Below, in pieces: positions 5,045 through 56,437 of a DNA stretch of 64,000 bases. Every line of letters starts with the position of its first letter. Positions within the stretch are counted from its first letter, which is position 1. The position numbers and the translations under genes are program-made. The notes under the pieces are model-generated. The model saw nothing but the letters and a program-made list of their open reading frames with translations. It searched no databases and was not told the DNA's origin. Origin of the DNA: a virus; IMG/VR virus record IMGVR_UViG_3300045988_118370, positions 81,863 through 145,862 of that record. One strand, written 5' to 3'.

Positions 5045-5060
5045 AATTTAAATCTTCCTT

Positions 5061-6571: not shown

Positions 6572-6754
6572 TCAATAAGGTCTTTGAATTGGCATTAAAT
6601 CATCTTCTGAAAGAAGCCACTTTTCACCATGCTCATCAAGGACTTCAATCTGATAATTTAATACTCGAATGACAGTACATTTAAGATACTGTCTACGATA
6701 ACAACGACCACGATAAGGGACAAAACAATAAGAATTACCAACTTCAATATTCAT
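6572..6754 (-). CDS. hypothetical protein (60 aa)
   Basis: ORF with RBS GAAAGGAGAAAATAAATA before the ATG and its own type-1 promoter at 6770-6830. TGA stop. Confidence 0.5.
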   Translation of the reverse strand: MNIEVGNSYCFVPYRGRCYRRQYLKCTVIRVLNYQIEVLDEHGEKWLLSEDDLMPIQRPY

Positions 6755-6910
6755 TATTTATTTTCTCCTTTCTCAACTTTCTATATATATTATATTATAT
6801 ATTTTTAATAAAATCAAAAAAGTTCTTTTTGTTTAAGTAGATTTAACAAATTTACCACAATTTTAGTCGAAATCAGGAACACCGCGTGAAGGTATTGTGG
6901 ATAGTTCCCG

Positions 6911-6982
6911 CAGGCGCCGTAGGATTCGAACCCACACCTCAAGATTTTGGAGATCCGAATGCGACCGTTACACCAGACGCCT
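6911..6982 (-). tRNA. tRNA-Trp (anticodon CCA), no encoded CCA tail
   Basis: Acceptor AGGCGTC/GGCGCCT (A1-U72), anticodon loop CTCCAAA with a 4-bp stem, T arm GTGGG-TTCGAAT-CCTAC. Confidence 0.5.
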
Positions 6983-7003
6983 ATAAAACAAGACCTTAAC
7001 TTT

Positions 7004-7074
7004 GTCCGGAAAATGGATTTGAACCATTAACTTAATCTTAAATGATTATGACCTAACCTTTAGTCTATTCTGGA
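7004..7074 (-). tRNA. atypical tRNA-like gene with a 6-nt anticodon loop (ATTTAA)
   Basis: Acceptor TCCAGAA/TTCCGGA, D GAC-TAAAGGTTAG-GTC, perfect anticodon stem TAATC/GATTA around loop ATTTAA, T arm AATGG-TTCAAAT-CCATT. No CCA. Confidence 0.4.
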
Positions 7075-7089
7075 AGTTATTTTTGCTGT

Positions 7090-7150
7090 AAAGGTCTTTC
7101 TTTATTTTATAAATATATTATATATTATTTTTTTAAAAATGTCAAAAAAT
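7090..7150 (-). promoter_or_regulatory. type-1 promoter (TTGACA-N17-TATAAT) upstream of tRNA-Trp and the atypical tRNA
   Basis: Revcomp reads TTGACATTTTTAAAAAAATAATATATAAT. Confidence 0.55.
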
Positions 7151-7153
7151 TTT

Positions 7154-8470
7154 TTAATTCGTTATTAGTTTCCATGTTGTACTATCTGTTTTTACATATA
7201 CTCTACTGTCAGGATGAGCCATATAATAAGTTAAATATACTGAACTATTTGCTGTACTATCACGATAAGGCTTAACATATATATAATAAGTAGTTCCAGC
7301 AGTAACTTTATAACAAATACCAAAATTAGCTCCAGTACCACCATATTTTTTTGCATAATCATCATCACTAACTAAAATATTAGAAGAAGGCTATCCACTA
7401 CTATTAAGAGAAGTAATATTTGATGTTAAATATCCATAAGTATCTATTGAAGAATTAGAATAAACAATAAAGTCCCCTGAAATAGTAGGAGTAAAAGAAA
7501 AATATCGACAAGTGCTTGGAGATAAAGTCCAAGAAGAGGTATTCTATTTGTTATAAGTAGGAGCAGATATTGACACAGTAGAATAAGCCCAATTTGCTAT
7601 AGACTAAATAGTAATTCTTATATAGCCATTTCCACCATGACCTGTTTCAGATGACCCTGTTGGAGAAATAAATGAAGAATTACCTGCGATAGTTGATGCA
7701 GAAGTTAAATAATAGTTACTATTTAACAAACAACCAGAAGGATAATTAGAAGCAGTGGATGAGGTATATACATAACCAGAACCTCCGCCACCATGATATT
7801 TTGTTCCACCCTGCATATTAGAGAGTGAAACAATTCCACCATACCAGCCGCCTCCTCCAGCTCCATTTATATTATAAGAAGAACTGGATGAATATCCATT
7901 TCCTCCTACTCCAAAGCTATTTCCTGAAGTTTGTGTACTTAGACCTGGACTATTAGACCCTGCTACACTACTGGTGCCCCCACCGGCATCTCCGCTTTCT
8001 GTATTAGATCCCCAAGAGGTAGCTCCGCCTCCGCCGGCGACAATTACACGAGCGTAGAGAGAGTTTGATCCAATACGAATATCAGAAGCTCCTCCACCAC
8101 CACCGCTTCGAGACATAGATCCGGAGACTCCTCCAGTACCGCCTCCATTAAATCCTCCTGTATAATCATTAGCAGAAGAAGAAATACAACCTCCTTTTCC
8201 ACCAGTATATAAATATACCGTTTGAGAGGAAGAAAGAGTTAAAATTCCCGTTGAATATCCACCTTTTCCTCCTATAGCTCCCGAAGAAGCGTCAAAACTA
8301 GAGTTACTATTAGCACCATTTCCTCCCTAAGCCCCCCAACATTCTAATTTATAAGTACCTTTTGGAAGGGCAATATTTTTATAAGTTCCACTATAAGGAC
8401 AATTTAATATATCTCCTGTTTTTAAAGAAGAAGAAGAAGGAATTGAAGAAGTTAAGTCGTAAGTTGCCAT
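7154..8470 (-). CDS. glycine-rich tail-fibre-like protein (paralog 2); 4 in-frame TAG read as sense
   Basis: Continuous 438-aa frame from ATG at 8470 (RBS AAGGAGGAG) to TAA at 7154 when TAG is sense. Motifs YKLECWGA, YLYTGG, GGGGGASDIRIG and GYIRITI are shared with the upstream paralog. Track fragments 7604..8116 and 8452..8670 are pieces of it. Confidence 0.65.
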
Positions 8471-9864
8471 GTAACGTCTCCTCCTTTCCAAGTTGTACTA
8501 TCTGTTTTTATATATATAGCTTTAGTAGGAGCATAAGTATTAGAATTGATTTTTATATTTAAAGGAGATAATACTGTAATACGAATATATCCATTTTGCC
8601 CTCCAGGATTAGTTTTACTATAGCCTATCGTAGTAGAGGCATTTGTTAAATAATAATTATTGTTTAACAAACAGCCAGAAGGATAATTAGAAGCAGTTGA
8701 TGAAGTATATACGTAGCCAGAGCCTCCCCCATTATAAGTTCTATAATCAGCAGAGCTATCACTAACATTAGTAGAAGCACCACCGCCATACCAGCCACCA
8801 CCACCACCACCGGGACCATAATTATAATTGGTAGATCCACTAGCATCAGCACCTTGACCAAAAGATCCATTTGTTCCTGCTTTAGTCTATGTAGCCTTAT
8901 ATTCTTCAACCGCAGAGTTACCCGTCAATCCGCCACCCTATTTAATAGAAGAATTACTTTCTCCCGCGCCACCACCACCACCACCGGCAACAATTACACG
9001 GGCATAAAGAGAGTCTTGACCTACGCGGATATCGGAAGCTCCTCCGCCTCCTCCACCTGATGTGTAAGCAGAAGTATACCATCTAATCCTAGAGCTACCT
9101 CCTCCATTAAATCCACCATTAACTATCTTACCTTTTTCACTATCACTTGAATAACTACCATGCCCCCCGGTGTATAAATAAATAGTGGTAGGAACTGGTA
9201 AAGAAAGAATTCCTATAGAATATCCTCCTGTTCCACCCCAATAACTATTTTTTGAACTCGCAGGAGTATAAGTAGTATTACTTTCCTATTTCTAAATCTA
9301 AAAATAAACTTCTTCATTATCCACGGAATTTGAGCTATCTTTAGTATAAGTCATTACGATAGTAGATCCTGATGATAAAGAATAAGTGCCAGTAGTAGTA
9401 AGAGAACTTGATCCAGAAACCGCATTTAAAACTGTATTTCCTCCAACAGTTAAAGTGACTTTATCATAGCTTGCTTCAGTTTTATAATAATATGAAAATT
9501 TATAAGTCCCCCCAGAAGTACAAGTTAATGTAGTTGTAGCAGTACTTGAATCTATTCCTCCGTTAGTAGCTATCCAGTCATTTCCGTCTTGACGAAAATA
9601 ATAATTTGAATCATTAACAGTAAAATAACTGGTCGCATTATGAGTTCCTATATATATCCATGAAGTTGTTGTTGATGAAGTTAAAGAACCAGAATAACCA
9701 ATTCCGCCATAGCCACCCCAACATTCTAATTGATAATTTCCCGCTGGAAGTTTTACTGGATTTACCGCTCCTGAATAGCTACTATTAATAATATCTCCTG
9801 GAATAAATTTAATAGAAGAATAATCTGTTATAGAAGTTCCAGAAGGATTATAAGTATTTGGCAT
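8452..9864 (-). CDS. glycine-rich tail-fibre-like protein (paralog 1); 5 in-frame TAG, three of them within 6 codons
   Basis: ATG at 9864 with RBS AGGAGGA. The frame continues through F-TAG-I-TAG-K-TAG-E at about 9286-9300 into a Gly-rich region with the same motifs as paralog 2. TAA at 8452. 470 aa if read through, 188 aa if the TAG cluster terminates. Confidence 0.6.
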
Positions 9865-9880
9865 TTAAATTCCTCCTCTA

Positions 9881-10435
9881 TTAAGTGAAATACTAAATCC
9901 AAATATCTCCAACATTTCCGTCTGAAGCGGTGGGAGCAGAAGTGGATACTTTAATATTTCTTAAAATATTATTGTTTAAATAAGAAGAATTAGTAGTGAC
10001 AGATAAATTAGATCCCATAGAACCATTAGTAATCTAAGCTAAGTCTAATCCTGGATTAATGGGTAAAATATAATCACCACTGGATGACCCTAATTGTATC
10101 TATCCGATAAATGCTTCATCTTTATATAGAAAATTTGCTTCTACAGCAGTATTCTAATGCCAACATCCTAATCCATTATTAGAATGTTCTTTTTTAATAT
10201 AATATTGAGTTAATTTTAATGCTCCTAAATTATTTATATTTATTGTTATATTAGTAATTGGATTTGTCGCAACATTATTCATATTTGGAATAAGGCCAAT
10301 AATCATTCCGTCTTTATATTCTTTAATAGATTTTGCGGTTCCTATGTAAGTTAATCCATCAGTAGAAGTAATTGGAATAATTTCTAAACTACCACTTCCA
10401 CTACGCATATGTTCTATTGCTTTTGGAATTGCCAT
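9881..10435 (-). CDS. hypothetical tail-associated protein; 4 in-frame TAG read as sense
   Basis: ATG at 10435 with RBS AAGGAGGT. The frame is open through 4 TAGs to TAA at 9881 (184 aa). Track fragment 10154..10435 is its N-terminus. Confidence 0.5.
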
Positions 10436-10872: not shown

Positions 10873-12306
10873 TTAACTAAAATTATGTATAAAGTCTTTT
10901 AAAGACCTAAAATTATTAACTTTTTCTTCACCAGCATCTCTAAAGCACCAAGGACATAAATACATATCAGTCCCTTTATGATAGTGAATATCTTCTGTAT
11001 AATATAAATTATTACAACATTCGCATCGTTTACAATAAGTATCCGCACAACTATCGCAAACTAATTCATTCTCATCGCCTACGGAATTTGCTTCATCAAG
11101 AATTATACGAGAACCGCAACAAGCGCAATAACCATAGTTATCGTCTTCATTTACTCCATAACTGAATTCACAATCTCCGCATCGCATATATTCTCCACTT
11201 TCAATTATAGTTTTACCGCATTGTAAACAAGGAACATCACCACCAATAGACCAATGAGGAAGATCAGTCTTGTCAAATGGATAATAATACAATTTTAAAC
11301 TATAAATAGGCAAATAGCAAGAAGAATAAAGCAAATCATTATATTGAAGAGTATGCTCACCAATATCTTCAACGATATCACTAATAGGATATAAACGAGA
11401 CAAAATAGGAATCCATGTTTCAGATAATCCGATAGTCTCTTCTCCAAAAGGAGTGCTACTCATCCTATTAGAGACAGTAGTAATACCTCCGTCTACCCAT
11501 TCACGCAACTGAAAAGTCTTATCAAAAGTATTGATAATATCTTTAATTTTTATTAAAGCATTAGTTGTCATAAAAGGATATTGGCGACCAGCCATCAAAC
11601 CGCGTCGTTTATCTTCCATGTAAAGAAGCATACGCCATTTCTTAGAATTCCAAAGAACGTCTTCGGGGAAATGCGGAAGTTTCTGATTCTCCGCTCCGCG
11701 CAAATAGCAAATAAAAGTGCTTCTATCTACCATGTAAGATAAATTTCCTGCTCTGTATTCACCATCAAGCGCATGACAAGAACGCCAATTATAAGTATTT
11801 TCACTCACGCTCAGAAAATCCAAAGGATGAACTGAGAAACATAATGTTCCCTCAATCTTGTCCTCTTGGATAATACGACTTGCGTAATTTTGAATATCTT
11901 CCAAAGAGCGCGGATTCTCTTCAAAATACTTAAAAGCCTTAACTAATTTCATTCCTCTTGGAATCTTTTTATCCTTATAAAAATAAGTATCTATAACTGT
12001 ATTATTAAAGAATCCTTCTTTATTTACTGAAATAAAATCTTTTAAGTCTTCATTATTATAAGTATAATTAATTGTTTCAAGAAACTCCTCAAGACGATGC
12101 TCTTTAGTTTTATCATCTAAAGAAAAAGATACCTTTTCCGGCCATTCATAAATTAAATGACCGTGAAAAAATTTAATTAAGTCTTTTTTGGCTTTGAGGA
12201 ATCTTTCGAATAGTTCTTCTGTTTTTGGATTACTGATTCCTTGGGAGTAACTGATGACTTTGTTGAACTGTTCTCTAATGCTTTCGATGTCGAAGTCATA
12301 TGACAT
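10873..12306 (-). CDS. large paralog A of an unknown family with SVHPLD...W-SC core and a Cys-rich C-terminus (possibly PcfJ-like)
   Basis: Start at MSYDFDIE with RBS GGAGG 7 nt upstream; the track start at 12327 has no RBS. Core LCFSVHPLDFLSVSENTYNWRSCH is shared with the 14814..16418 protein. C-terminal CxxC clusters. Confidence 0.65.
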   Translation of the reverse strand: MSYDFDIESIREQFNKVISYSQGISNPKTEELFERFLKAKKDLIKFFHGHLIYEWPEKVSFSLDDKTKEHRLEEFLETINYTYNNEDLKDFISVNKEGFFNNTVIDTYFYKDKKIPRGMKLVKAFKYFEENPRSLEDIQNYASRIIQEDKIEGTLCFSVHPLDFLSVSENTYNWRSCHALDGEYRAGNLSYMVDRSTFICYLRGAENQKLPHFPEDVLWNSKKWRMLLYMEDKRRGLMAGRQYPFMTTNALIKIKDIINTFDKTFQLREWVDGGITTVSNRMSSTPFGEETIGLSETWIPILSRLYPISDIVEDIGEHTLQYNDLLYSSCYLPIYSLKLYYYPFDKTDLPHWSIGGDVPCLQCGKTIIESGEYMRCGDCEFSYGVNEDDNYGYCACCGSRIILDEANSVGDENELVCDSCADTYCKRCECCNNLYYTEDIHYHKGTDMYLCPWCFRDAGEEKVNNFRSLKDFIHNFS

Positions 12307-14813: not shown

Positions 14814-16418
14814 TTAAAAAATCAAAGAAGGTCTTTGATTTGGGTTAGTGCCATTCACCCAAGAAATAAATTCCTCTTCATTAATGTCAAAGAGGTCTCT
14901 GCCCTTTTCCGTGAGAGTTTCTCCATCGACATAATAATTAGAGCGCCAACCGTCTCTTTCTTCTTCAATTTCACCAGTGAAGAAGGTTTTTACTTTTTTA
15001 TCTCCACAACAATCCCAACAAATATCCGCATAGAATCCAACTGGCTTCTTTTGGAATCGAAGACGGATTTGCTTCATATCATCATAATCTTTACGAACTT
15101 CACAACAAGGACAAACTTCTGTGCTTTCATCATAACAATAAGCGCAGTAAGTTTTTCCATCGACATTATAAGTGTCATCGACATAAACAATATCGCCACA
15201 CTTATCGCACTTTACTGCACCCGAGCAACTTGGACAGATAGTCATTTCCGCGTTATTCTCTCTATCATCGAAGAGAGAATCATCAAGAAGCTCTCCACAA
15301 CACATACACTCAGATTCACCCGAGTAGTTAAGATCAATGTTTTCGTCCGTAGGAATCTTAGTGGAAACGTAAGCATTATGCTCTGAATAGATATCGTTAT
15401 ACATGAAATTGGTATCAAGATTGAAATAAATATTTCTATCAAACTCACCAATAATATTATTACTGTAATTCTGAATCTTATTTAAATACTTGGTATAAGG
15501 ACCAAAGCCAAGATTCTGTTCAGCGAGCTTCTTGATCCAAGCGAGACAAATACTTTCAAGGTTATCATTACAATAAGGATAACCCTTGATACCAAGGATA
15601 AGACTTTCATCTACGATGAAAAGTTCACGCCAGCGCTTGCTATTCCACATCACAGGCTTACCAACCTTATAACAAATTTCCATGTCCTTATCAGATTTAA
15701 GATAAGCTTCAAGGATAATGGGAGAATTCATCATCTCAACGGTTCCCTGACGATATTCGCCACCACCATTCTGCCATCTCATACAAGAATCCCAACCGCA
15801 ATTATTATCACTCATAGTGATATAATCAAGAGGATGAACAGAAAGACAAAGTTCACCAGAAATATTTTTCTGATTGAGGAACTGAGAATGAGCGATACGG
15901 AACTTTTCATAAACATCGCGGTCAATCTCCAAAATATCACTCAGCTTACCAAGCATCTTACTAAGCTTCATGCCCTTATTAATCATAAGAGTTTTATTAT
16001 TATAAGTGAATTTAAAAGATTCACCATCATAGATGTTAGACATTAAAGGTTCAACATCCAAAAGACTTGCCAAATTAAGATACTGAGTATTAGAGATGGT
16101 TGTCCTGAGATAAAGATCTCTTACCTTATTATTAAAGGTATTTCGGAATTCGAAACCATCACCATTTCTACCGAAATAATCATAATAATCATCACTCATC
16201 TCTTCATAAGAACGAGAATAACTTACCTTACGAGAAATGATAAGATTATCTCCCAACATCTTATAAAGATTCTGCTTATTATAAGCCCAAAAGCGGAGAA
16301 TGTAGTCGAGAGATGCCTTCATATCGGAACTATCTCCGCCGAGGCCCGCAAAATTACGAATATACTCTTCAATCTTTTCGCAATCTTCTTTGGAAAGGAG
16401 CTCAAATAAATTAGCCAT
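14814..16418 (-). CDS. large paralog B of the SVHPLD...W-SC family (possibly PcfJ-like) with a Cys-rich C-terminus
   Basis: 534 aa. Core GELCLSVHPLDYITMSDNNCGWDSCMRWQNGGGEYRQG. C-terminal Cys clusters. Own promoter and RBS. Confidence 0.7.
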   Translation of the reverse strand: MANLFELLSKEDCEKIEEYIRNFAGLGGDSSDMKASLDYILRFWAYNKQNLYKMLGDNLIISRKVSYSRSYEEMSDDYYDYFGRNGDGFEFRNTFNNKVRDLYLRTTISNTQYLNLASLLDVEPLMSNIYDGESFKFTYNNKTLMINKGMKLSKMLGKLSDILEIDRDVYEKFRIAHSQFLNQKNISGELCLSVHPLDYITMSDNNCGWDSCMRWQNGGGEYRQGTVEMMNSPIILEAYLKSDKDMEICYKVGKPVMWNSKRWRELFIVDESLILGIKGYPYCNDNLESICLAWIKKLAEQNLGFGPYTKYLNKIQNYSNNIIGEFDRNIYFNLDTNFMYNDIYSEHNAYVSTKIPTDENIDLNYSGESECMCCGELLDDSLFDDRENNAEMTICPSCSGAVKCDKCGDIVYVDDTYNVDGKTYCAYCYDESTEVCPCCEVRKDYDDMKQIRLRFQKKPVGFYADICWDCCGDKKVKTFFTGEIEEERDGWRSNYYVDGETLTEKGRDLFDINEEEFISWVNGTNPNQRPSLIF

Positions 16419-19247: not shown

Positions 19248-19330
19248 ATAAAAAAAAAGTCCTTTCTTAACTTTCTATAAATATTATATAATAATATTTA
19301 TAAAAAATCAAAAAAGGACTTTTAATTTAT

Positions 19331-29576: not shown

Positions 29577-30026
29577 TTAAAGAATAGGTTTGAGGTTATC
29601 GCAACAATTGAAATCTCTCATACAACCATTTTCTTCGCTGAAACAAGAACAACCATTTTGGCATGTGTCTCGGACAATGTCGGGATTACGGACATTCATA
29701 ACGGTTTGCATATTTCCAACGACTTCTCGCTTTTGGATCATTTTCGGCGTGTCGGGAGAAGCATTAAATGCGCAGTTCACATTTTGTTCACAATTAGCGC
29801 ATGTGTTAAGTTTTGCCCAACATTTATTACAATAAGTGTTGCCTTGATCGTCGATGATCATTTGCTTATGGAAAATTGGAGTATGACATACTTTACAAGT
29901 GTAATATTCACCGCAAAGAAAATTATCGCAGATCGCATGATTTGGATCAATTGTATTGCCTGTGATTTGACATAATCCGGTTGTTGGCCGGTAATAACCG
30001 CAGTTATTACAATAAAAAGTCATCAT
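29577..30026 (-). CDS. Cys-rich protein with multiple zinc-ribbon-like motifs (149 aa)
   Basis: 26 Cys in CxxC spacing patterns, for example CNNCGYY and CNKCWAKLNTCANC. Confidence 0.55.
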   Translation of the reverse strand: MMTFYCNNCGYYRPTTGLCQITGNTIDPNHAICDNFLCGEYYTCKVCHTPIFHKQMIIDDQGNTYCNKCWAKLNTCANCEQNVNCAFNASPDTPKMIQKREVVGNMQTVMNVRNPDIVRDTCQNGCSCFSEENGCMRDFNCCDNLKPIL

Positions 30027-30277
30027 AGTGTTTTAGCAGAATAGGGTTCATCTTCGCTGTCAAATTTTAGAATCTTGTTAGCAAGATCGCGGTTGACGCG
30101 CAAAGGGCCATCGTCAAGAGGGGTAAATGCGACAGTAATAAGATCGTCGAAATACTCTTCTGCCCAACGACCAGCCTCAGTGAGAGTTTCCGCGAAGATA
30201 AAACCGCACGTAAATCTATCCATTTTATCAGAGTCGTCCCAATAGCGCGCTTCATAATAAACGGGGCATTGTTTCAT
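30023..30277 (-). CDS. hypothetical protein (84 aa)
   Basis: ORF. Confidence 0.5.
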   Translation of the reverse strand: MKQCPVYYEARYWDDSDKMDRFTCGFIFAETLTEAGRWAEEYFDDLITVAFTPLDDGPLRVNRDLANKILKFDSEDEPYSAKTL

Positions 30278-30293
30278 ATTTATTTTCCTTTCT

Positions 30294-30632
30294 TTAAGAA
30301 ATTGTGGAGATTAGAAAAATCTCGGGATCATCGAGGCTTTCAATGGGGATTTTAAGAAACTTTGCATAAGCTTCTTTCATCGCGTCATTAAGGCGATAAT
30401 ACTCCTGCGGAGCGATGAAGATATTGTCGATGCGGATGGCTTCACCTGCGGAAGACTCACCGAGAAGATAGCCGAAGATAGGATTCTCGTCGTTATCATA
30501 ATCGCTTGCGCGATGCCAATAACCTTCCTCGGTAAGCTGTTCGATAGCTTCAGTCATATTATCATAGTTCTCAAGAAGGTTCTTGGGGACTTTATAACCA
30601 CATACGAGCTTAGAACCAAAATCAACAGACAT
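30294..30632 (-). CDS. hypothetical protein (112 aa)
   Basis: ORF. Confidence 0.5.
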   Translation of the reverse strand: MSVDFGSKLVCGYKVPKNLLENYDNMTEAIEQLTEEGYWHRASDYDNDENPIFGYLLGESSAGEAIRIDNIFIAPQEYYRLNDAMKEAYAKFLKIPIESLDDPEIFLISTIS

Positions 30633-30633
30633 A

Positions 30634-30831
30634 TTACTTATCCTCCTTAAAAATAGAATTGATAAAAGTGCTATATTCAGTGGGTCTTACATAATACGCG
30701 GTTTTCGCTTCATTATCCCAAAAAATCATCACAAGTTTATCCGACCCAGAATTCTTTACGGAAATTGAATGAATATGAGTCGTATTAAGGATATGAGTTT
30801 GACCTTGATTATCAATAAGTTTAGCAAGCAT
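30634..30831 (-). CDS. hypothetical protein (65 aa)
   Basis: ORF with a type-1 promoter at 30840-30900. Confidence 0.45.
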   Translation of the reverse strand: MLAKLIDNQGQTHILNTTHIHSISVKNSGSDKLVMIFWDNEAKTAYYVRPTEYSTFINSIFKEDK

Positions 30832-31039
30832 TTTTTATCACCTTTAATAGTTTTTCTTTATTTTATATTTATATTATATATTAAAATTTAATAAAAATCA
30901 ATAAAGAATAAGCGATTGGACAAAAATGTTAAATGTAATTAAATGTTAAAAAATTGTGTTAAAATTTTAGACATCTATGTGTAGGTATTAGAGATCGCTA
31001 TGCTTAGGATAGAAGGAACATTAGACGGGAAAACCGCGT

Positions 31040-31200
31040 CTTTTTACCAAAAATGGTCATTTCAAATGAAAATGGTCAAAATTTTCTATATGTTGGTCAA
31101 AAATTTCTATAAAAATGGTCAAAAATTTCTATATTTTTGGTTAAAAAATGGTAGATAAATGGTCAAAAATTTCTATATTTTTGGTTGTATTTTTTAGGTC
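31040..31200. repeat. iteron-like direct repeats (about 5 copies of aaaatggtcaaaaatttctata)
   Basis: Tandem, imperfect repeats with variable spacing immediately upstream of the plus-strand winged-helix gene. Confidence 0.7.
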
Positions 31201-31256
31201 AGGAACAAATAATAGATTATAAATAATTTTTAAATAATAGTGAGAGGAGGTGTGTT

Positions 31257-31880
31257 ATGGAGATAAAGAAAAATTCTCGATAGATTCCCTCTGTTCCGAC
31301 TATTACACGAGAAAAAGATTATTGTGATTTATTATATGCTTGGTTGTAGTGTCATTCAGAGAGAATTACTATGGATAGTGAAGGTCGTCGAATTAATAAG
31401 TCATTAGTTAAATGGACGGCCATAGAAAAAGACTTTGTTAGAACATTGTCAGATGGCACAACTGAAAAAGTTATGTCAAGAAAAACTATTGCGAAATATT
31501 TCAAATATTTAGAAGATAAAGGTTTAATTCAATTACAAGATGATGGTTATTATTATTTGACTATATTAGATGCTACAGAAGCTAATTTAATTGAATATAA
31601 TACTTTATCTAAATTAATAAATGTTTTATAGAAAAATAGTTTGAGTATTTATGTTTATTTGTTTAATAGATATTACGCCAATGGTTTTTAGCCATTTATT
31701 GCTACTATTAAATAGATAAAAGAATTTATTGGTATTGCCACTACCACAACATCTAATAATATTATTGTAGATGATACAATTGATATTTTAAAAAGATTAG
31801 GATTATTAGATTATAGAATTAAAACTGAAGATAATAAAAGTTATTTAGAGTTTTAGTGGGTAAAGAACGCGTTAGAATAA
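31257..31880 (+). CDS. putative origin-binding or replication-initiator-like winged-helix protein; 6 in-frame TAG read as sense
   Basis: RBS GAGAGGAGG 6 nt before ATG 31257. The frame is open through TAGs to TAA at about 31878 (207 aa). The wHTH segment RKTIAKYFKYLEDKGLI sits in the track fragment 31371..31631, whose own stop is a TAG. Flanked by iteron arrays on both sides. Confidence 0.5.
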
Positions 31881-31960
31881 AAATGGTCAAAATTTTCTGA
31901 CGGAGTGGTCAAAATTTTCTGATAAATGGTCAAAATTTTCTACATTTTGGTCGTTTTTTA
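31881..31960. repeat. second iteron array (4 copies of tggtcaaaattttct)
   Basis: Same core repeat as 31040-31200, immediately downstream of the wHTH gene. Confidence 0.65.
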
Positions 31961-32087
31961 GAAACCATATAAATAGTAATAGTAATAGTTTTTAAAATAG
32001 AGGGTATATATTTATAAAACTCCGGGCTACGCCCTTCGTTTTATAAATATATACCGGGGTATTTTTTGAGAGTAAAAGGAGTAAAAT

Positions 32088-32339
32088 ATGAGTTATAGTT
32101 ATACAGATATAAGAGGCGGGAAAGGCAATCCTTCAATAATAAGATTTGTAAGAGGAACGCAAGAATAGTTTGATAAGATGGATAAAACAAATATGATAAA
32201 ACCTGAATTATATATGAGAGATGATATTCTTTATTTTGTTATTCCAAGTAATACAAAACCAGTAAAAGTAGCATTTGACAATGATAGACCTGAATCAATA
32301 GAAGAAAATCCATTCTTACAAGAGTCAATTGACTTTTGA
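32088..32339 (+). CDS. hypothetical protein (83 aa) with one in-frame TAG
   Basis: RBS AAAAGGAGTAAAAT before the ATG. TGA stop. Confidence 0.4.
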
Positions 32340-32569
32340 CTCGGATACTACGTATCCTCGTTGATAAGGGTATTATTGACTTCGGGCATAAATGCCCTCG
32401 TTTATAGGGGTATTATTTGATTTATAATAAATAATATATTATAATATATATAATAAAAGAAAAAATGAAATGAAAATAATACCCCGTAGGCAGGGAGGAT
32501 CGTAGATCCGAGTCGCCTGCCGGCGTGGCGAACGCAATTTCAAATGAAAAAACGAAAAGGAAAAATGAA

Positions 32570-32941
32570 ATGAAATTTACGATTGAAGAATTAAAGAAGA
32601 ATAATGGAGAAAAGGTAGGCGTCTTCCGCAATTGGAATGTAATTGCTACTACTAAGAAAGAGTTCTTTAATAGAGAGAATACGCAAGGCGCATATCTTAT
32701 TTGGGACGATTGTAATAAGTTGGTTTTTAATGGTAAGGTTCTTGGTCGAATTAGTGAGCAAGGTAAGGTGGAATATATTGAGAGTGAGTATAGATATGTG
32801 AAGCCTGTATTAGAAGAGAAACCGCAGGCTACTAATTCTGTTGCTCCTGGATCTGAGGATGTGGATCTCAGTAAGAGAACGCTTGCTGATGATATTCTTG
32901 ATAGTGCATTTAAAACAAAGTTGGAGGAGTTGCTTGTATGA
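32570..32941 (+). CDS. hypothetical protein (about 123 aa)
   Basis: ATG with RBS AAAGGAAAAATGAA. The track ORF start at 32525 is upstream. A possible 24-aa hydrophobic micro-ORF follows at about 32938-33012. Confidence 0.5.
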   Translation: MKFTIEELKKNNGEKVGVFRNWNVIATTKKEFFNRENTQGAYLIWDDCNKLVFNGKVLGRISEQGKVEYIESEYRYVKPVLEEKPQATNSVAPGSEDVDLSKRTLADDILDSAFKTKLEELLV

Positions 32942-33235
32942 GTGGTATTATTTGGTTTTTAATTGGTGTAGCTGTTGGATATTGCATATGGAACGCTGGA
33001 AGAGACCGATAATAGACCTATATTGGTTGATTCGCTTCTGGATAGTGATTAAGTTTTTAGGTTCAGAATCGGATGACGTAGAGTAAAGTGCGGTTGAGTG
33101 GAATAATTGATCGGAAATATAGAAATTATTATGAATTGCTGAAATTTGCGAAAATGCTGGAAATTGTGGTCGTGTGGTGCCGATCGGTTTAACCAATCAC
33201 CAACCACATTTTCCCCGTCTCCGATCTCCGAACCT

Positions 33236-51844: not shown

Positions 51845-52010
51845 TTTTTTCTTATAATAATAATAAAATAAAAATAAAGAAATGTCAAGTCGTAGAGTGT
51901 GATTGGGCAAAAGTTATTTGTTTTGTTAAAAAAATTTTTAAATATAAAAAGAAAAAATTTTAAATGAAACTTGACAAAAAAAATTTTTTCGAGTATAATA
52001 TAAATATAGA
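51845..52010. promoter_or_regulatory. divergent promoter pair: leftward TTGACA-N17-TATTAT and rightward TTGACA-N17-TATAAT at the early/late boundary
   Basis: Plus strand: TTGACA 51971-51976, 17-nt spacer, TATAAT 51994-51999, RBS CTGGAGGTAGAAA, ATG 52024. Minus strand: revcomp TTGACATTTCTTTATTTTTATTTTATTAT at about 51855-51890. Confidence 0.6.
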
Positions 52011-52023
52011 CTGGAGGTAGAAA

Positions 52024-53079
52024 ATGATAAAACTTGATTATTCTTTACAAACTCCAGAAGAAAGAAATCAATTAGTCGAACAAATTTTGGCTGATAATCC
52101 AGATCCGCCTGAAAAGTATTTAGAAATTTTAGCAGACTATTTGGTTCTTTGTATGGAGAAACAAGAAAAAAAGGAGAAAAAATTATTAACTGATAATCGT
52201 ATGGCTACAGTTAATAAGCGTGAGACTTCTTTTGAAGGTCTTGTTTCCCAACTCGAAAATGGCGAAGATGGAATTTATAATTTAATTACAGATAATAGAA
52301 ATACAATATTTCAACCACATATTACAATTACAAAAAAAGATTTAGAAGAGATACCAAGTTTAAATTAGTTAAGAGAAGCCATTAATGTTTGGGAGGCTAA
52401 ATTAAAAGTAACAGAAGGCAAAGATGCTTTTGTTATTAAAAAGGCTCTTATTGAAATGCGTAAAGATTAGTATGTTATGAAAAATGCTTATCGTCGTCCA
52501 ATAGTGCCTACAAAATTAACCAGATCAAAGTCTTATATTCCATTAGACGATAAAACATTTATTTTTGATGATGATGGTTTTCCCATTCCTGATGGAATTA
52601 GTTTATTAAGACCTGAAATATGTTCTGCGGTTTTATGTAATTATTCCCGATTAAAGCAAGATAGTTGGGGCGAATATGATAAAGACTTATGGTATTTAAT
52701 GGAGGATTTTGATAAGCTTTGTGATAAAGCTTTAGCTAATTATCCTCTTTATGATAGAATCGTTGAATATAAAATTGATGGTTTACAAAATATTGACATT
52801 CAAGAGAAAATACAAATGGAATTTGGTATTAAACATAGTCTTGAATATATTTCAAGTTTATGGCGTAATAAAATTCCAAAATTAATTGCTTCGACTGCGG
52901 AAGATGAATATTTAGATAATTATTATTTAAATGTTGAAAAAGGTAAATATAAAAAATGTAGTCGTTGTGGTAAAATAAAATTAGCTCATAATAAATATTT
53001 TAGTAAAAATAAAACAAGTAAAGATGGCTTTTATAGTATTTGTAAAAGTTGTCGAAATTCTAAGGTCAAAAAATCTTAA
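52024..53079 (+). CDS. hypothetical late protein (351 aa) with 2 in-frame TAG; C-terminal zinc-ribbon
   Basis: Track fragments 52024..52368 and 52477..53079 are in one frame, joined through TAG 52366 and TAG 52468. CSRCGK...CKSCR at the C-terminus. Confidence 0.6.
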
Positions 53080-53128
53080 TATTGTCCTTTTGTTTATAAT
53101 AAATAATTGAAAGGAGAATTTTTTATTT

Positions 53129-54028
53129 ATGGCTGAAACATATTATTGCGAAAAATGTAATCGCACAATGAATGGCACAGAATTTTATTCATCTAATAAT
53201 TTAGAAAAATATCCTAATGATGGTAAATTTCCTGTGTGCAAAAAATGTATGACAATGCACGTTGATAATTGGAATCCAGATACTTATTTATGGATTTTAC
53301 AAGAAGCGGATGTTCCTTATGTTCCAGATGAATGGAATAAATTAATGGAAAAATATGGACGCGATCCGCAGTCTATGACCGGTATGACAATTCTTGGACG
53401 TTATTTGTCAAAAATGAAACTCAAATAGTTTAAAGATTATCGTTGGAAAGATACAGAATTTTTACAGTAGATGGCAAATAATAAATTAGAGCAAACTATG
53501 AAACGTCAAGGGTATGATGCTCAATAGATTGCAACCGCTATTGAAAAAAGTTCTATCACTATTCCAGAAGGAGAACTAAAAGAGCCGGTTTACGCTCCAC
53601 CACCCAATGCCCCTACGGAAGATTATTTCGCACAATAGAGCGGTGAAGTGGAACAAGAATTAGACTTAACTGATGAAGACCGCACTTATTTAAGACTTAA
53701 ATGGGGCAAAACTTATAAACCTGAAGAATGGGTTAAACTTGAATAGTTATATGAAGAAATGATGGCTTCTTATGATATTCAAGGCGCCGGACATAAAGAT
53801 ACGCTAAAATTAATATGTAAGACATCTTTAAAGGCAAATCAATTGATCGATATTGGTGATATTGAAGGTTTCCAAAAGATGAGCAAAGTATACGATAGCT
53901 TGATGAAGTCTGGTAAATTTACCGCTGCTCAAAACAAAGCAGAATCAGGTGAATTTGTTGATTCAATTGGCGAATTAATTGAATTATGTGAAAAAGAAGG
54001 ATATATTGAAAGATATTATGTTGAATAG
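53129..54028 (+). CDS. hypothetical late protein (299 aa) with 5 in-frame TAG; N-terminal zinc-finger
   Basis: Fragments 53129..53428 and 53759..54028 share one frame with no TAA or TGA between them. CEKCNR...CKKCM. RBS GAAAGGAGAA. Confidence 0.6.
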
Positions 54029-54040
54029 CCACATGATAAA

Positions 54041-54316
54041 GTGGATTTAACTATTCAAGATATGCAACGTTATACTCGCACTCTTATCGAAGATGAAACT
54101 AATATTAGCACAATGGTAGAAAAGGCTTTACGCGAAAATGCTAAAGAAGATGAAGAGAAAGCAAAGAACGCGGAAAGCGATATTGTTGATGATGCTGATT
54201 TAAGTATTGAAGAACTTGAAAAAACTATTAAAGATAGTGATTACGCGGATTTTGAGGAATTTAAAGAATAGGAGTCCGCGCAAGATAATGAGTTCTTATA
54301 GGGTTTAGATAAATAA
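54041..54316 (+). CDS. small acidic protein (91 aa) with 2 in-frame TAG
   Basis: ATG 54041. TAA 54314-54316 overlaps the terL start (TAATG). Confidence 0.45.
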
Positions 54317-56055
54317 TGGCATTACAAGATTTACTGTAGTTAAGTGATAGCCGTAGAAAAATAGGTCTATCACCGGAGCGAGTAGAAGCGGTAATGCCCA
54401 CTATCCGCAAATACGTTGCCTTTTGGAGAGAATATCCTGATTTATTTGTAGATTTTATGGTGCGAGGAAGACGCACTGAAATAAAAGATGGAGAATTTAA
54501 TTTTTATTTTTATTAGAGAGTATTTCTCCGTTCTGTTATGCGTTATTAGTATGTTTACGCGGTTTTTCCTCGTGCTTATTCTAAATCATTTTTGTCTGTT
54601 ATGGCATTAATGATTAGATGTATTTTATATCCTGGCGCACATTTGTTTGTTACTTCTGGAGGTAAAGAGCAAGGTGCTAGTATTCTTCATGATAAAGTTC
54701 AAGAAATATGTGAACTTATTCCAAGCTTTAATCGAGAAATTGATTGGAGTCGAGGAAAAACTCTTGAAGGAAAAGATAAAGTTAGATATGTGTTTAAAAA
54801 TGGTTCAGTTTTGGATAACCTCGCAGCCCGTGAAAGCACTCGTGGTCAGCGTCGTCATGGTGGACTAATGGAAGAATGTGTCGGTATTGATGATGCTATT
54901 CTTCGTGAAGTTATTATTCCTGTTATGGCAATTTCTCGTAGAGCTAAAGATGGCACTACCAATGAACAAGAGCCATTAAACAAATCACAAATCTATATTA
55001 CTACTGCTGGTTATAAGGGCACATTCCCTTATGATAGACTTATTGGTTTCTTAGTTCGTATGGTGACTTAGCCCGATCGTTGTATGGTATTAGGTGGAAC
55101 ATGGCGAACTCCTGTTGCGGTAGGATTACAAAGTAAAACATTTATTACTGACCAAAAGAATGAAGGAACTTATAATGAAGCTTCATTCGAACGTGAATAT
55201 GAATCTAAGTGGTCAGGAACTGTTGAGGATGCTTTCTTTAATGGAGAGCATTTTGATAGAAATAGAAAATTATTATAGCCTGAGTATGAAGCTTCTGGAC
55301 GGGCGGGCGCACAAGCTTATTATGTACTTTCTGTAGATGTAGGTCGTAAAGGATGCGATTCAGTAGTTTGTGTATTTAAAGTAACACCACAAGCCCAAGG
55401 TCCAGCTATTAAGTCTTTAGTAAATATGTATACTATGTCAGATGATCATTTTGAAGATTAGGCTATTAAATTAAAGAAATTATTTTATAAATATAAAGCT
55501 AAAACTTTAGTTATAGATGGTAATGGTTTAGGTATTGGACTTTTGGATTATATGGTAAAATCTCAAAATGATGAAGATGGTGAATTTTTACCTGATTTTG
55601 GTGTTGAGAATGATGATGATGGATATTATAAAAAATATCGCACACCAAATACTCAATTTGATGCTATGTATGTTATTAAAGCAAATGCTCCAATAAATAC
55701 TGAATGTCATGCTAATGCTTAGACTCAGTTACAAGCGGGTAAGGTAAAATTCTTAATAGATGAGAGAACAGCTAAAGAAAAATTATTAGCTACTCAAAAA
55801 GGTTCAAAAATGACTCCTGAACAAAGGGCAGATTATTTAAAACCATTTACTTTAACCTCCATATTAAAAGAAGAAATGATGAATTTACGCGAAGAAAATG
55901 AAGGTATTAATATTATTTTAAAATAGGCAAATCGCGGAATTCGTAAAGATAAATTTTCGGCTTTTGAATATGGATTATATTATTTAAAACTTGAAGAAGA
56001 TAAAAAGAAAAAACGTAAAAAGTTTAATGCGGCTGATTGGTGCTTTTTAAATTAA
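54316..56055 (+). CDS. terL: terminase large subunit (579 aa) with 8 in-frame TAG
   Basis: Single frame 54316 to TAA 56053-56055 once TAG is sense; track fragments 54592..55071 and 55084..55278 are in it. ATPase-like FVTSGGKEQGAS and GGLMEECVGID. Nuclease-domain motifs VLSVDVGRKG and LVIDGNGLGIG. Position is just upstream of the putative portal. Confidence 0.7.
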
Positions 56056-56067
56056 GGAGGGTGGAAA

Positions 56068-56424
56068 GTGCGTGCTTCAAGAGGAGAAATTAAAATTGAA
56101 GAAATCTTAGAAGAAGCAGGACTACCTTTTAAAATGGAATACATCTTTCCAGATTTAAAAAGCCCAAGCGGGCGTCCGCTTCGTTTTGATTTTGTTATAT
56201 TTGATGATGATGGAAAAATTGATTTCATTATTGAGTATTAGGGAAAATAGCATTATGAAGCCAGTTCTAAATTTGGTGGAAAGCGCGGTTTATACCAGTA
56301 GCAATATAATGATAATCAAAAAAGACGTTTTTGCGCTTTACATGATTTTAGATTAATAGAGATTCCATATACCGACGAAAACCTTATTTCTTATGATTAT
56401 ATAATGAAATTAGCAGGTTATTAA
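56068..56424 (+). CDS. putative PD-(D/E)xK-type endonuclease-like protein (118 aa) with 3 in-frame TAG; GTG start
   Basis: RBS AAGGAGGGTGGAAA before GTG. Candidate catalytic motif RFDFVIFDDDGKIDFIIEY(TAG)GK(TAG)HY. Wedged between terL and the putative portal. Confidence 0.4.
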
Positions 56425-56437
56425 AGGAGGTGGAACT

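What the first reader, a model, noticed from the sequence alone, without database searches (positions are those of the whole stretch)
30900..32000. Iteron arrays flanking a TAG-recoded winged-helix gene, a candidate replication origin or partition locus
About five copies of aaaatggtcaaaaatttctata sit upstream, and four copies of tggtcaaaattttct sit downstream, of a plus-strand gene. Its product has a winged-helix segment (RKTIAKYFKYLEDKGLI). It is the only plus-strand island inside a 45-kb leftward-transcribed region. Iterons plus a cognate wHTH binder are the standard architecture of Rep/iteron origins and of some ParB/parS-like systems. The gene's apparent stop in the ORF track is a TAG, and the frame continues to about 31880.
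Basis: partly seen in the sequence, partly recalled or inferred. Interest (0 to 1): 0.7.

Follow-up and report, generated by a model that had tools for sequence, protein, structure and literature searches.

The report
Probable phage replication origin with initiator
A small phage gene that reads the amber stop codon as glutamine encodes a protein with two winged-helix DNA-binding domains. It is bracketed by arrays of a 22-bp repeat and is most likely the replication initiator and origin of a widespread, uncharacterised family of gut phages.

Summary
The core TGGTCAAAAWTTTCT occurs 7 times in 64 kb, against 0.95 expected by chance. All copies are on the + strand at 21-22 bp phasing: four plus degenerate copies upstream and three plus one downstream of a gene at 31257-31880. 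That gene has 207 codons, six in-frame TAGs and a TAA stop. Two of the TAGs align with Gln residues that are ≥90% conserved in the family and CAA-encoded in standard-code relatives, so TAG is read as glutamine.

The product models with high confidence (pLDDT 96) as two tandem winged-helix domains. Its only two-domain matches among solved structures are the iteron initiators pi and RepE. Its closest named viral structural neighbours are replication initiators.

The gene-plus-repeat cassette is conserved down to 31% protein identity, and the repeat sequence changes with the protein. In every lineage the downstream array is followed by an AATAG cluster. In the large phages a long AT-rich hairpin follows that. 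In 24-kb temperate relatives the gene sits in the replication-module position and is the only candidate initiator in the 12.6 kb read.

The best reading is a Rep-plus-iteron origin of a new sequence family (confidence about 0.6). The main caveats are that no origin activity has been shown, there is no sequence match to Rep_3, skew evidence is equivocal, and one small plasmid carries a homologue beside a complete Rep_3 replicon. A partition role is not supported.

The parts
30832..30975 (.). AT-rich tract between the leftward gene (start 30831) and the cassette. It is a divergent-promoter region and one candidate unwinding region.
   Evidence: 30832-30911 is the most AT-rich 80-mer of the 64-kb window at 91%. 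A leftward promoter-like site, TTGATT-17-TATAAT, lies at 30901-30873. The tract is conserved in L004 and divergent in L002.
30976..31044 (.). G+C-richer spacer containing a GATC; function unknown.
   Evidence: AT content drops to 53-60% here. The spacer is nearly identical in L004 and only loosely similar in L002.
31045..31206 (+). Upstream iteron array of eight 17-22-bp units. Four have the exact core (31073, 31094, 31116, 31160). Four are degenerate (31054, 31138, 31182, and AGGTCAG at 31196). The left edge, TACCAAAAATGGTCA, carries inverted TGGT half-sites.
   Evidence: This is the best-conserved part of the intergenic region in relatives with 88% and 74% protein identity. A promoter-like site at 31152-31179 lies inside the array.
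31242..31250 (+). Ribosome-binding site GAGAGGAGG.
   Evidence: Read from the sequence; conserved in L004 and L002.
31257..31880 (+). Gene for a 207-aa protein with two tandem winged-helix domains. It has six in-frame TAG (Gln) codons and a TAA stop, and is the proposed iteron-binding initiator.
   Evidence: Searches give the frame and the TAG=Gln reading. One search finds identical proteins on contigs of about 190-200 kb. One search gives the AF2 model (pLDDT 96.4, pTM 0.91). Searches give the structural neighbours. Searches give the PHROG 3396 match.
31881..31962 (+). Downstream iteron array: three exact-core copies (31884, 31906, 31927) and one degenerate copy (31948). The first starts 4 nt after the stop codon.
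   Evidence: The position 4 nt after the stop is shared by L002, L004 and L014.
31972..32000 (+). Cluster of four AATAG pentamers (AAATAGTAATAGTAATAGTTTTTAAAATAG). This is the proposed unwinding element or secondary binding element.
   Evidence: It is the densest AATAG cluster in the window, with 4 in 40 nt against a next-best of 2. Across 12 loci, 29 copies are seen against 2.4 expected in the 80 nt after the downstream array.
32003..32055 (+). Long AT-rich hairpin with an 18-bp stem, an internal GGGC/GCCC mini-stem and a CTTCG loop motif.
   Evidence: dG -16.8 kcal/mol, z -5.3 to -6.6. An equivalent hairpin with an unrelated stem sequence is present in 8 loci, about 7 lineages.
32056..32069 (+). 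GGGGTATTTTTTGA tail after the hairpin, giving a possible intrinsic-terminator function in this lineage.
   Evidence: Read from the sequence. The T-run is absent after the equivalent hairpin in six other loci and only partial in L010.
32088..32339 (+). Small downstream ORF of 83 codons with one TAG. It is variable cargo of the island and is not conserved among relatives.
   Evidence: No PHROG match. Different genes occupy this position in L004, L002 and L014.

Best explanation
The locus is a replication-origin cassette of a large TAG-recoded siphovirus that probably infects Firmicutes, with a genome of about 195 kb. The 207-aa protein is an iteron-binding initiator built from two winged-helix domains.

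Inferred mechanism. Monomers bind each 22-bp iteron. The strongly conserved TGGTCA block and the weaker TTTCT block lie about one helical turn apart, so they could be contacted by the two domains on one face of the DNA. This mirrors what RepE and pi do. Phased binding to the array just past the stop codon would distort and open the adjacent AATAG-repeat, AT-rich segment. The long hairpin next to it would extrude or act as a priming or loading signal. A helicase, phage or host, would then be recruited.

The upstream array overlaps the gene's promoter region and occurs only where the gene is a stand-alone transcription unit. It would give autorepression, and possibly pairing with the downstream array for copy or timing control, as incC and incA do around repA in P1.

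Six of the gene's eight Gln codons are TAG, the first at codon 9. The initiator can therefore be made only when the phage's amber suppression is active.

Shown here: the repeats, their conservation and co-variation with the protein, the fold, the genomic contexts and the TAG=Gln reading. Inferred: DNA binding, origin function, the roles of the two arrays, of the AATAG cluster and of the hairpin, and the timing of expression.
For: 1. Repeats. Seven matches to the core (≤2 mismatches allowed, all exact), all direct and at 21-22 bp phasing, found only in the two arrays; 0.95 expected by chance.
3. Viral structural neighbours. Among those that carry a functional name, the best are 'Replication initiator protein' (E 5e-6) and 'Replication protein O' (E 7e-4, TMq 0.64), followed by 'Replisome organizer' (E 2.5e-3).
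4. PHROG matches. Besides PHROG 3396, family members hit phrog_8102, 678, 270 and 428 (replication initiation) and phrog_186 (DnaD-like loader).
5. Conservation. The gene-plus-repeat cassette is conserved from 88% to 31% protein identity. The repeat changes with the protein: TGGTCAAAAWTTTCT, TTGGTCAwwwTTTT, ATGGGYAAAAAATAG, AATGTTAAWAAAGTA, TGTGTTAAAAATT, TGGAAATTTSARCAACC. The sites are confined to the cassette in eight of the ten loci scanned; L009 and L008 have one or two stray matches, and the L015 core is too low in complexity to judge.
6. Conserved non-coding order after the stop codon: iterons, then an AATAG cluster (29 seen against 2.4 expected in 12 loci), then a long perfect hairpin whose stem co-varies. 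The genes downstream of it are not conserved. This points to a cis-acting element rather than an operator for a specific gene.
7. Small relatives. In 24-kb temperate TAG-recoded phages the homologue and its 3 x 23-bp iterons lie between the integrase/RHH switch and TerS. It is the only candidate replication protein there.
8. Precedent. Iterons on both sides of rep is the P1 layout, incA-repA-incC-oriR (PMC6906374). Repeated motifs in the unwinding element that Rep proteins bind are described for iteron plasmids (PMC4980987).
Against: - No experiment or read-depth profile shows origin activity.
- There is no sequence-level relation to Rep_3. None of 90 members matches it among the top families. 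A profile comparison with a bona fide Rep_3 protein gives 2.6% probability.
- Plasmid pRGI00117 carries a homologue with its own 3 x 23-bp repeats alongside a complete Rep_3 replicon with separate iterons. The family member is therefore not necessarily that element's replicase.
- No DnaA box lies near the locus. No helicase or loader gene is adjacent in any lineage.
- The cumulative GC-skew minimum of the window is at about 51-52 kb, not here. The GC-skew step at the locus is inconsistent among relatives.
- The gene shares the TAG-rich, CAG-poor codon profile of the packaging genes (terminase, putative portal), whereas the surrounding genes are TAG-free. This fits a late function at least as well as an early initiator.
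Confidence: 0.6

Rival explanations
1. The protein is an autoregulated transcription factor, or forms a nucleoprotein roadblock. It binds the two arrays and may loop the 0.8 kb between them. This would control its own promoter, the divergent leftward promoter at about 30.9 kb or the small downstream genes, or insulate the two leftward transcription blocks from each other.
For: Sequence searches hit only MarR/Crp/ArsR-type wHTH models, and PDB sequence hits are all regulators, at weak E-values of about 1e-3 or worse. The upstream array overlaps promoter-like sequence. The locus sits exactly at a compositional boundary between two leftward gene blocks. TAG-rich coding suggests expression alongside late genes.
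Against: All Pfam and NCBIfam hits are below their curated cut-offs and cover only the helix-turn-helix. Arrays of 4-8 same-orientation repeats phased at two helical turns on both sides of a gene are not typical operators. No site occurs elsewhere in the 64 kb, including the late-operon start at about 51.9 kb. The downstream genes are not conserved while the non-coding module is. This reading gives no role to the conserved AATAG cluster or the hairpin.
Confidence: 0.17
2. The cassette is a segregation or stability module without an NTPase. The protein would be a centromere-binding protein and the repeat arrays its centromere. The comparison is with pSK1 Par or R388 StbA, recalled from my own knowledge. 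It would maintain an extrachromosomal phage or plasmid form.
For: pRGI00117 already has a complete Rep_3 replicon and still carries a homologue with its own repeats. Direct-repeat arrays next to an autoregulated DNA-binding gene are typical of centromeres. The PHROG label is a chromosome-segregation protein.
Against: No ParA, ParM or TubZ-like gene lies in or near the cassette in any lineage. In 24-kb integrating temperate phages, which carry an integrase, a plasmid-partition function has no obvious use, yet the gene occupies the replication-module slot. No member matches ScpB models in Pfam or NCBIfam. There is no hit in 72,556 plasmids apart from that one metagenomic element.
Confidence: 0.1
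3. The cassette is a polar replication-fork barrier or terminus. A winged-helix contrahelicase, comparable to Bacillus RTP whose gene lies next to its Ter sites (my own knowledge), would bind same-orientation repeats to stop forks coming from one side.
For: All repeats share one orientation. The protein has the winged-helix fold. A compositional boundary lies at the locus.
Against: RTP is a single-domain dimer, not a tandem winged-helix protein. RTP-family models are not among the families listed for the 90 members. The position in small temperate phages, between the lysogeny switch and the packaging genes, is where origins lie, not termini. The AT-rich AATAG cluster and the hairpin are not features of Ter sites.
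Confidence: 0.04
4. The cassette is a packaging-recognition site. A TerS-like winged-helix protein would bind repeats that flank its own gene, forming a pac or cos site.
For: The gene shares the TAG-rich coding of the packaging genes. Three of 90 members weakly hit a small-terminase PHROG. Some phages carry pac within or next to terS (my own knowledge).
Against: The gene lies 22 kb from the large terminase gene in the window. The 24-kb relatives have a separate Terminase_2 small subunit next to TerL, with their own 55-bp repeats just upstream. The model is a monomer-like tandem winged helix without the oligomerisation domain of small terminases.
Confidence: 0.03

Closest known systems
P1 plasmid-prophage replicon (incC iterons/oriR - repA - incA iterons) and the mini-F ori2 replicon (iterons - repE - iterons)
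   Same: The initiator gene is bracketed by two arrays of direct repeats of about 19-22 bp in one orientation. One array lies at the promoter/origin side and the other just beyond the gene. The P1 gene order is confirmed in PMC6906374. The tandem winged-helix initiator fold is shared with RepE.
   Different: There is no sequence similarity and no DnaA boxes. Here the conserved, ancestral array is the downstream one; small relatives have only that array. An AATAG cluster and a long hairpin follow it. The element sits in a lytic-looking 195-kb phage and the gene is TAG-recoded. Handcuffing and copy control are untested.
Rep_3 family iteron initiators (R6K pi, F RepE, pPS10 RepA; Pfam PF01051 and PF21205)
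   Same: Two winged-helix domains. Iterons of about 22 bp with two conserved blocks about one helical turn apart. These proteins are the only two-domain structural matches among solved structures.
   Different: The family fails the Rep_3 HMMs, and the profile comparison gives 2.6% probability. At 207 aa the protein is shorter. Its conserved N-terminal motif, NSRQxP...YxDxLYxYLQ, was not compared with Rep_3.
Phage origin-binding initiators (lambda O, SPP1 G38P 'replisome organizer', DnaD-like)
   Same: A phage-encoded winged-helix protein binds repeats at an origin in or beside its own gene. Named BFVD neighbours and secondary PHROG hits belong to these classes.
   Different: The repeats lie outside the coding sequence; none is found inside it. 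No adjacent loader or helicase gene exists in any lineage. Similarity is at fold level only.
PHROG 3396, annotated 'segregation and condensation complex subunit ScpB'
   Same: Eighty-seven of 90 family members match it over nearly full length, with E-values down to 4e-19. ScpB is also a tandem winged-helix protein (Foldseek hit 3w6j_E).
   Different: Neither the Pfam ScpB model (PF04079, recalled from memory) nor a ScpB model in NCBIfam appears among the 25 families listed per library for the 90 members. No ScpA/kleisin neighbour is present. Cognate repeats flank the gene. The label looks like a fold-level transfer, not a functional assignment.
NTPase-less plasmid stability proteins (pSK1 Par, R388 StbA) and centromere-binding proteins generally
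   Same: An autoregulated DNA-binding protein with arrays of direct repeats next to its gene. One homologue co-resides with an independent Rep_3 replicon.
   Different: The fold class was not shown to match. The family is present in integrating temperate phages at the replication slot. It is essentially absent from the 72,556-plasmid collection.

Membership tests
Rep_3 iteron initiators (PF01051 Rep3_N + PF21205 Rep3_C) | Significant match to the Rep3_N and Rep3_C profile HMMs | tested here: not met
   The window protein has no Rep_3 hit even at E<=10. Rep_3 is not among the 25 most-matched of the 54 families hit by the 90 members at E<=0.01. hhalign of the family profile against a bona fide Rep_3 protein (pRGI00117, 1335-2099) gives probability 2.6%.
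Rep_3 iteron initiators (PF01051 Rep3_N + PF21205 Rep3_C) | Two tandem winged-helix domains (WH1-WH2) | tested here: met
   AF2 model with pLDDT 96.4 and pTM 0.91 shows two winged-helix domains. pi (2nra_C) aligns over 149 residues. The best global TM-score, 0.44, is to 9yzg_C/9yzn_C, read as RepE54 co-crystals from PMC10373652; chain identity not checked.
Iteron-type theta origin (general definition, PMC6312765 and PMC4980987) | Array of directly repeated initiator-binding sites of about 17-22 bp next to the rep gene | tested here: met
   establish the sequence pattern. Binding by the protein is inferred, not shown.
Iteron-type theta origin (general definition, PMC6312765 and PMC4980987) | Adjacent AT-rich unwinding element with repeated motifs | tested here: inconclusive
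   The AATAG cluster at 31972-32000 is conserved family-wide. The most AT-rich 80-mer of the window lies at 30832-30911. Unwinding cannot be tested here, and the AT-rich tract also carries a promoter-like site.
Iteron-type theta origin (general definition, PMC6312765 and PMC4980987) | DnaA boxes in the origin (common but not universal) | tested here: not met
   No TTATCCACA site with up to 1 mismatch lies between 29245 and 33490. The window-wide count is at chance level.
Iteron-type theta origin (general definition, PMC6312765 and PMC4980987) | Supports autonomous replication; replication starts here | not testable with these tools
   This needs cloning or marker-frequency data. In-window skew is equivocal.
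P1/F-type replicon layout | Iteron arrays on both sides of the initiator gene | tested here: met
   Arrays lie at 31045-31206 and 31881-31962. Both arrays are also present in L002, L004, L009, L014, L007, L008 and L012. The 24-kb phages and pRGI00117 have only the downstream array.
ScpB (the label of PHROG 3396) | Match to curated ScpB models and a neighbouring scpA/kleisin gene | tested here: not met
   Pfam and NCBIfam scans of 90 members list only generic HTH families. No kleisin-like neighbour appears in any gene table. Only the PHROG 3396 match itself is met.
Plasmid/phage partition systems (ParABS, ParMRC, TubZRC) | Cognate NTPase gene adjacent to the centromere-binding protein gene | tested here: not met
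   The other island genes are 83 and 123 codons with no family match. Neighbours in relatives are 54-130 aa, none with an NTPase domain.
MarR/Crp/ArsR-type transcription regulators | Score above the family's curated cut-off, and a palindromic operator | tested here: not met
   For the window protein, all Pfam hits are below the gathering score and cover residues 73-106 only. The sites are direct repeats, not palindromes.
Lambda O / replisome-organizer type phage initiators | Origin repeats inside the initiator gene and an adjacent helicase-loader gene | tested here: not met
   No iteron lies inside the CDS in any of 10 loci. No loader or helicase gene is adjacent. Fold-level and PHROG-level resemblance exists.

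The most novel reading that the evidence does not exclude
Replication initiation, or a switch in replication mode or copy control, is deliberately gated by the phage's genetic-code switch. The initiator is the most TAG-dense sizeable gene (>=100 codons) in the window, with 6 of its 8 Gln codons as TAG and the first at codon 9. It sits alone on the opposite strand inside a block of TAG-free genes. In a host-like standard-code translation environment only an 8-residue peptide can be made. Origin firing at this cassette would then be licensed only once the amber-suppressor tRNA is active, tying DNA replication to the code change. The same cassette, with one TAG, is used by 24-kb temperate recoded phages, where it could form part of a lysis-lysogeny lock.
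Probability: 0.25. Interest if true: 0.75.

Novelty: new variant of a known kind. Interest (0 to 1): 0.45.

Why it matters
If correct, this identifies the origin and initiator for a large, so far uncharacterised protein family. The family comprises 231 clusters at 50% identity and more than 500 at 90%. It is shared by uncultured gut phages from about 24 kb temperate to about 195 kb genomes, none of which has a mapped origin.

It corrects a database label, since PHROG 3396 is annotated 'ScpB'. It supplies a compact cis and trans module (iterons, AATAG cluster, hairpin and a 207-aa protein) that could be tested as a replicon or developed as a vector for hard-to-manipulate gut Firmicutes.

It also offers a concrete test of the idea that stop-codon recoding times the phage programme. 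Here a probable replication protein, not a lysis or structural gene, is among the most heavily recoded genes.

Tried and rejected
- DNA similarity of 30000-33000 to 50,697 phage records found no match. tblastn of the protein against plasmids found none. Against phages it found only one unannotated 16-kb scaffold.
- Names from the source databases gave nothing useful. One automatic label read 'Lrp family regulator'.
- Two scans of genome contigs (GTDB species representatives) found no relative, so no host was assigned. The broad alignment A1 was too diverse for pattern back-translation.
- The afdb50 fold library was unavailable.
- Rfam found nothing credible in 30-34 kb.
- DnaA boxes are absent at the locus and at chance level in the window.
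- GC skew as an origin marker is dominated by transcription direction. The step at the locus appears in only 3 of about 5 lineages. An AT-skew step, more negative on the right, appears in 8 of 8 loci but cannot be separated from differences in gene content.
- I considered a short standard-code isoform from Met39 to the TAG at codon 125. I rejected it because Met39 is not conserved even in the 88%-identical relative.
- The 52-71-aa ORF at 30943-31158 overlaps the iterons and is judged spurious.
- The hairpin as a plain intrinsic terminator fits the window and L004 only. The T-run is missing in six other loci and only partial in L010.
- The inverted AT-rich tracts 30853-30901 and 32417-32465 are 73% complementary. 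I treat this as low-complexity coincidence.
- The tRNA-like gene at 7004-7074 is not a CTA suppressor.
Full report
WHAT IS THERE

The region contains a + strand gene at 31257-31880. Its ATG is preceded by GAGAGGAGG. It has 207 sense codons, six in-frame TAGs (codons 9, 31, 125, 145, 153, 200) and a TAA stop. The 86-aa ORF that a standard-code ORF list shows at 31371-31631 is an internal fragment.

TAG is read as glutamine. Codons 9 and 31 align with positions that are Gln in ≥90% of the family (NSRQ, YLQ). In all three standard-code relatives, and in most recoded ones, those positions are encoded by CAA. One relative (L008) even uses TAG as its stop codon. With Q at each TAG, the protein is identical to database proteins found on metagenomic contigs of about 190-200 kb.

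TGGTCAAAAWTTTCT has 7 matches at up to 2 mismatches, all exact, in 64 kb, against 0.95 expected. All are on the + strand and all lie in the two arrays. With degenerate in-register copies, the upstream array (31045-31206) has eight units and the downstream array (31881-31962) has four, at 21-22 bp spacing. Across 42 units from this lineage and close relatives, information content peaks at TGGTCA. A weaker block, TTTCT, lies about 11 nt further on.

WHAT THE GENOME IS

The window carries 16 tRNA genes. It has a large terminase at 54316-56055 and a major-capsid-like gene at 60627-61733. The nearest terminases, at 44-47% identity, belong to large Firmicute siphoviruses: Enterococcus VRE9_4 and H1, Geobacillus E3, and the TAG-recoded gut phage phAss-1 (PMC10607447).

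Genes fall into two codon classes. Most packaging and structural genes, and the genes among the tRNAs, use TAG and CAA for Gln. The leftward genes from 10.5 to 30.6 kb use CAG and, with two single-TAG exceptions, no TAG; the 33-51 kb block is mostly TAG-free as well. The cassette gene has 29 TAG per 1000 codons, the highest density of any gene of 100 codons or more in the window. It nevertheless sits as an opposite-strand island among TAG-free genes.

THE PROTEIN

Sequence searches give only sub-threshold generic wHTH hits around residues 73-106, plus a weak DUF6945 hit on the C-terminal half. The one full-length family match is PHROG 3396, labelled 'ScpB'.

An AlphaFold2 model built on 90 diverse homologues is very confident (pLDDT 96.4, pTM 0.91). 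It shows two winged-helix domains with recognition helices at 75-87 and 165-180.

Against predicted viral structures, the top hits are uncharacterised gut-phage proteins (TMq 0.68-0.74). The best hits that carry a functional name are 'Replication initiator protein', 'Replication protein O' and 'Replisome organizer'. Subsets of the family also hit replication-initiation PHROGs (8102, 678, 270, 428) and a DnaD-like loader PHROG.

The family does not match Rep_3 by sequence. This is a fold-level and architecture-level resemblance, not membership.

COMPARATIVE EVIDENCE

The family is large: 231 clusters at 50% identity. In every lineage examined, the gene is a + strand island between two blocks of small leftward genes, with long non-coding gaps on both sides.

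The flanking repeats are always present, and their sequence changes with the protein.
- At 88% and 74% identity the core is the same.
- At 48% identity it is TTGGTCAwwwTTTT.
- At 42% identity it is ATGGGYAAAAAATAG.
- At 33% identity it is AATGTTAAWAAAGTA.
- At 31% identity it is TGTGTTAAAAATT.

The sites are confined to the cassette in eight of the ten loci scanned; L009 and L008 have one or two stray matches elsewhere, and the L015 core is too low in complexity to judge. None lies inside the coding sequence. In an alignment of the upstream intergenic region, the iteron array is the conserved part, while the AT-rich tract and the spacer diverge.

A conserved non-coding order follows the stop codon. 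Three or four iterons come first; the first starts 4 nt after the stop in four lineages. A cluster of AATAG pentamers comes next, with 29 observed against 2.4 expected in the following 80 nt over 12 loci. The window's cluster at 31972-32000 is the densest in 64 kb. In the large phages a long perfect AT-rich hairpin follows. Its stem sequence is unrelated between lineages, and its loop contains CTTCG (z-scores -5 to -9 in eight loci, about seven lineages). Only the window and L004 have a T-run after the hairpin, so it is not simply a terminator.

The genes downstream of this module differ even between close relatives. This argues for an autonomous cis-acting element rather than an operator serving a particular gene.

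TWO INFORMATIVE DISTANT RELATIVES

The first is the group of about 24-kb TAG-recoded temperate phages (L017, L018). Their gene order is integrase, two leftward genes, an RHH protein, a 37-aa ORF, the family member, 3 x 23-bp direct repeats plus an AATAG cluster, three small genes, TerS, a CHAP-domain gene and TerL, with the portal gene four genes further on. No other gene in the switch-to-packaging interval exceeds 103 aa. The family member is therefore the only plausible replication protein in the 12.6 kb read (the rest of the contig was not read), and it sits where replication modules normally lie.

The second is the 7.2-kb circular metagenomic plasmid pRGI00117. It carries a close relative of that gene with 3 x 23-bp repeats (hhalign probability 99% to the family). 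It also carries a complete Rep_3 gene with its own 3 x 22-bp iterons. This shows the cassette can coexist with another replicon, and it is the strongest single argument for a non-replicative role such as stability or regulation. It could equally be a two-replicon or chimeric element.

ORIGIN-SPECIFIC TESTS AVAILABLE HERE

The most AT-rich 80-mer of the window, 30832-30911, adjoins the cassette. It also contains a leftward promoter-like site. No DnaA box lies nearby.

GC skew tracks transcription. The window's cumulative minimum is at about 51-52 kb, where the gene strand flips, and the locus shows only a local inflection. Genes on both sides of the locus are on the same strand. Comparing them, GC skew steps upward in the window, L009 and L015, but not in L004 or L014, and it reverses in L001 and L002. 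AT skew steps downward in all eight loci. This marks a compositional boundary at the cassette that is compatible with a replication switch point but does not prove one.

INTERPRETATION

The most economical reading is a Rep-plus-iteron origin built on a new sequence family of tandem winged-helix initiators. The downstream array, AATAG cluster and hairpin form the ancestral core origin. The upstream array was added where the gene became a stand-alone unit. It serves autoregulation and possibly pairing, as in the P1 incC-repA-incA layout (PMC6906374; PMC6312765; PMC4980987). I put this at about 0.6.

The rivals, in order, are:
- an autoregulated transcription factor or roadblock (0.17)
- an NTPase-less stability or centromere module (0.10)
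- a polar fork barrier (0.04)
- a packaging-recognition site (0.03)

A classical partition locus is not supported, because no NTPase gene accompanies the cassette anywhere.

NOVELTY AND INTEREST

The kind of system is classical. The protein family is unannotated or mislabelled. The conserved sequence of iterons, AATAG cluster and hairpin has not, to my knowledge, been described; full-text searches found nothing. The heavy amber recoding of a probable initiator is unusual. Borges et al. report that use of the alternative code in replication genes varies between clades (10.1101/2021.08.26.457843). I rate this a new variant of a known kind, of moderate interest.

Noticed in passing
window 7004-7074 (- strand): ARAGORN reports a tRNA-like gene with an undetermined anticodon. 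The sequence fits a 5-bp anticodon stem (TAATC/GATTA) closing a 6-nt loop, ATTTAA. None of the 16 tRNAs in the window has a CTA anticodon, so the amber suppressor this genome needs must lie outside the window.
   Followed up: partly
window, whole: There are two codon classes. TAG-using genes also use CAA and almost no CAG for Gln: 3301-10435, 31257-32339, 51964-59674 and 62490-63303. TAG-free genes prefer CAG: 10555-30632, much of 33-51 kb, and the capsid-region genes 59692-62413. The putative major capsid gene is TAG-free although its neighbours are recoded.
   Followed up: partly
window about 30.8-33.3 kb as a boundary: The composition of same-strand genes changes across the cassette. GC rises from 0.38 to 0.43 and AT skew falls from +0.03 to -0.06. 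The AT-skew step recurs in 8 of 8 related loci.
   Followed up: partly
window 10873-12306 and 14814-16418 (- strand): Two large paralogous proteins of unknown function are 30% identical over about 150 aa (E 7e-18). They share an HPLD motif and Cys-rich C-terminal zinc-ribbon-like repeats. Only one has a PHROG match, and that PHROG has no assigned function.
   Followed up: partly
window 7154-8470 and 8452-9864 (- strand): Two adjacent, TAG-recoded, Gly/Ser-rich proteins have near-identical internal segments (GGGGGASDIRxG...LYARVIVAGGGG). They look like tail-fibre or receptor-binding paralogues.
   Followed up: no
window 5322-5447: A tandem repeat of 46 nt x 2.9 copies lies inside the tRNA gene array. 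It is one of the three top-scoring tandem arrays in the window, alongside the two iteron arrays.
   Followed up: no
window 32340-32481: After the small ORF come two copies of CCTCGTTKATARGGGTATTATT (32356, 32396) with small GC hairpins. A 90% AT tract follows at 32402-32481, the fourth most AT-rich 80-mer of the window. This is possibly a terminator plus the promoter for the next + strand ORF.
   Followed up: partly
window 19248-19330: A 40-nt inverted repeat, 85% complementary with a 3-nt loop, lies in a 91% AT intergenic region. It is the longest hairpin-type repeat in the window.
   Followed up: no
L016 (HG796263.1, pRGI00117), 1186-2099 and 5963-6699: A 7.2-kb circular metagenomic plasmid carries two separate 'tandem winged-helix protein plus about 22-bp iteron' modules. 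One is a Rep_3 module and the other belongs to the family studied here. The family-member module matches that of 24-kb temperate phages at about 63% protein identity.
   Followed up: partly
L018 3824-3878 and 3979-4033: Two perfect 55-nt direct repeats lie just upstream of the small terminase gene of the 24-kb temperate relative. They are a candidate pac/cos or promoter duplication.
   Followed up: no
L001-L003 and L014, upstream of the cassette: Relatives carry a Thg1-like (tRNA-His guanylyltransferase family) gene a few kb to the left of the cassette. One also carries a GIY-YIG/NUMOD homing endonuclease there.
   Followed up: no
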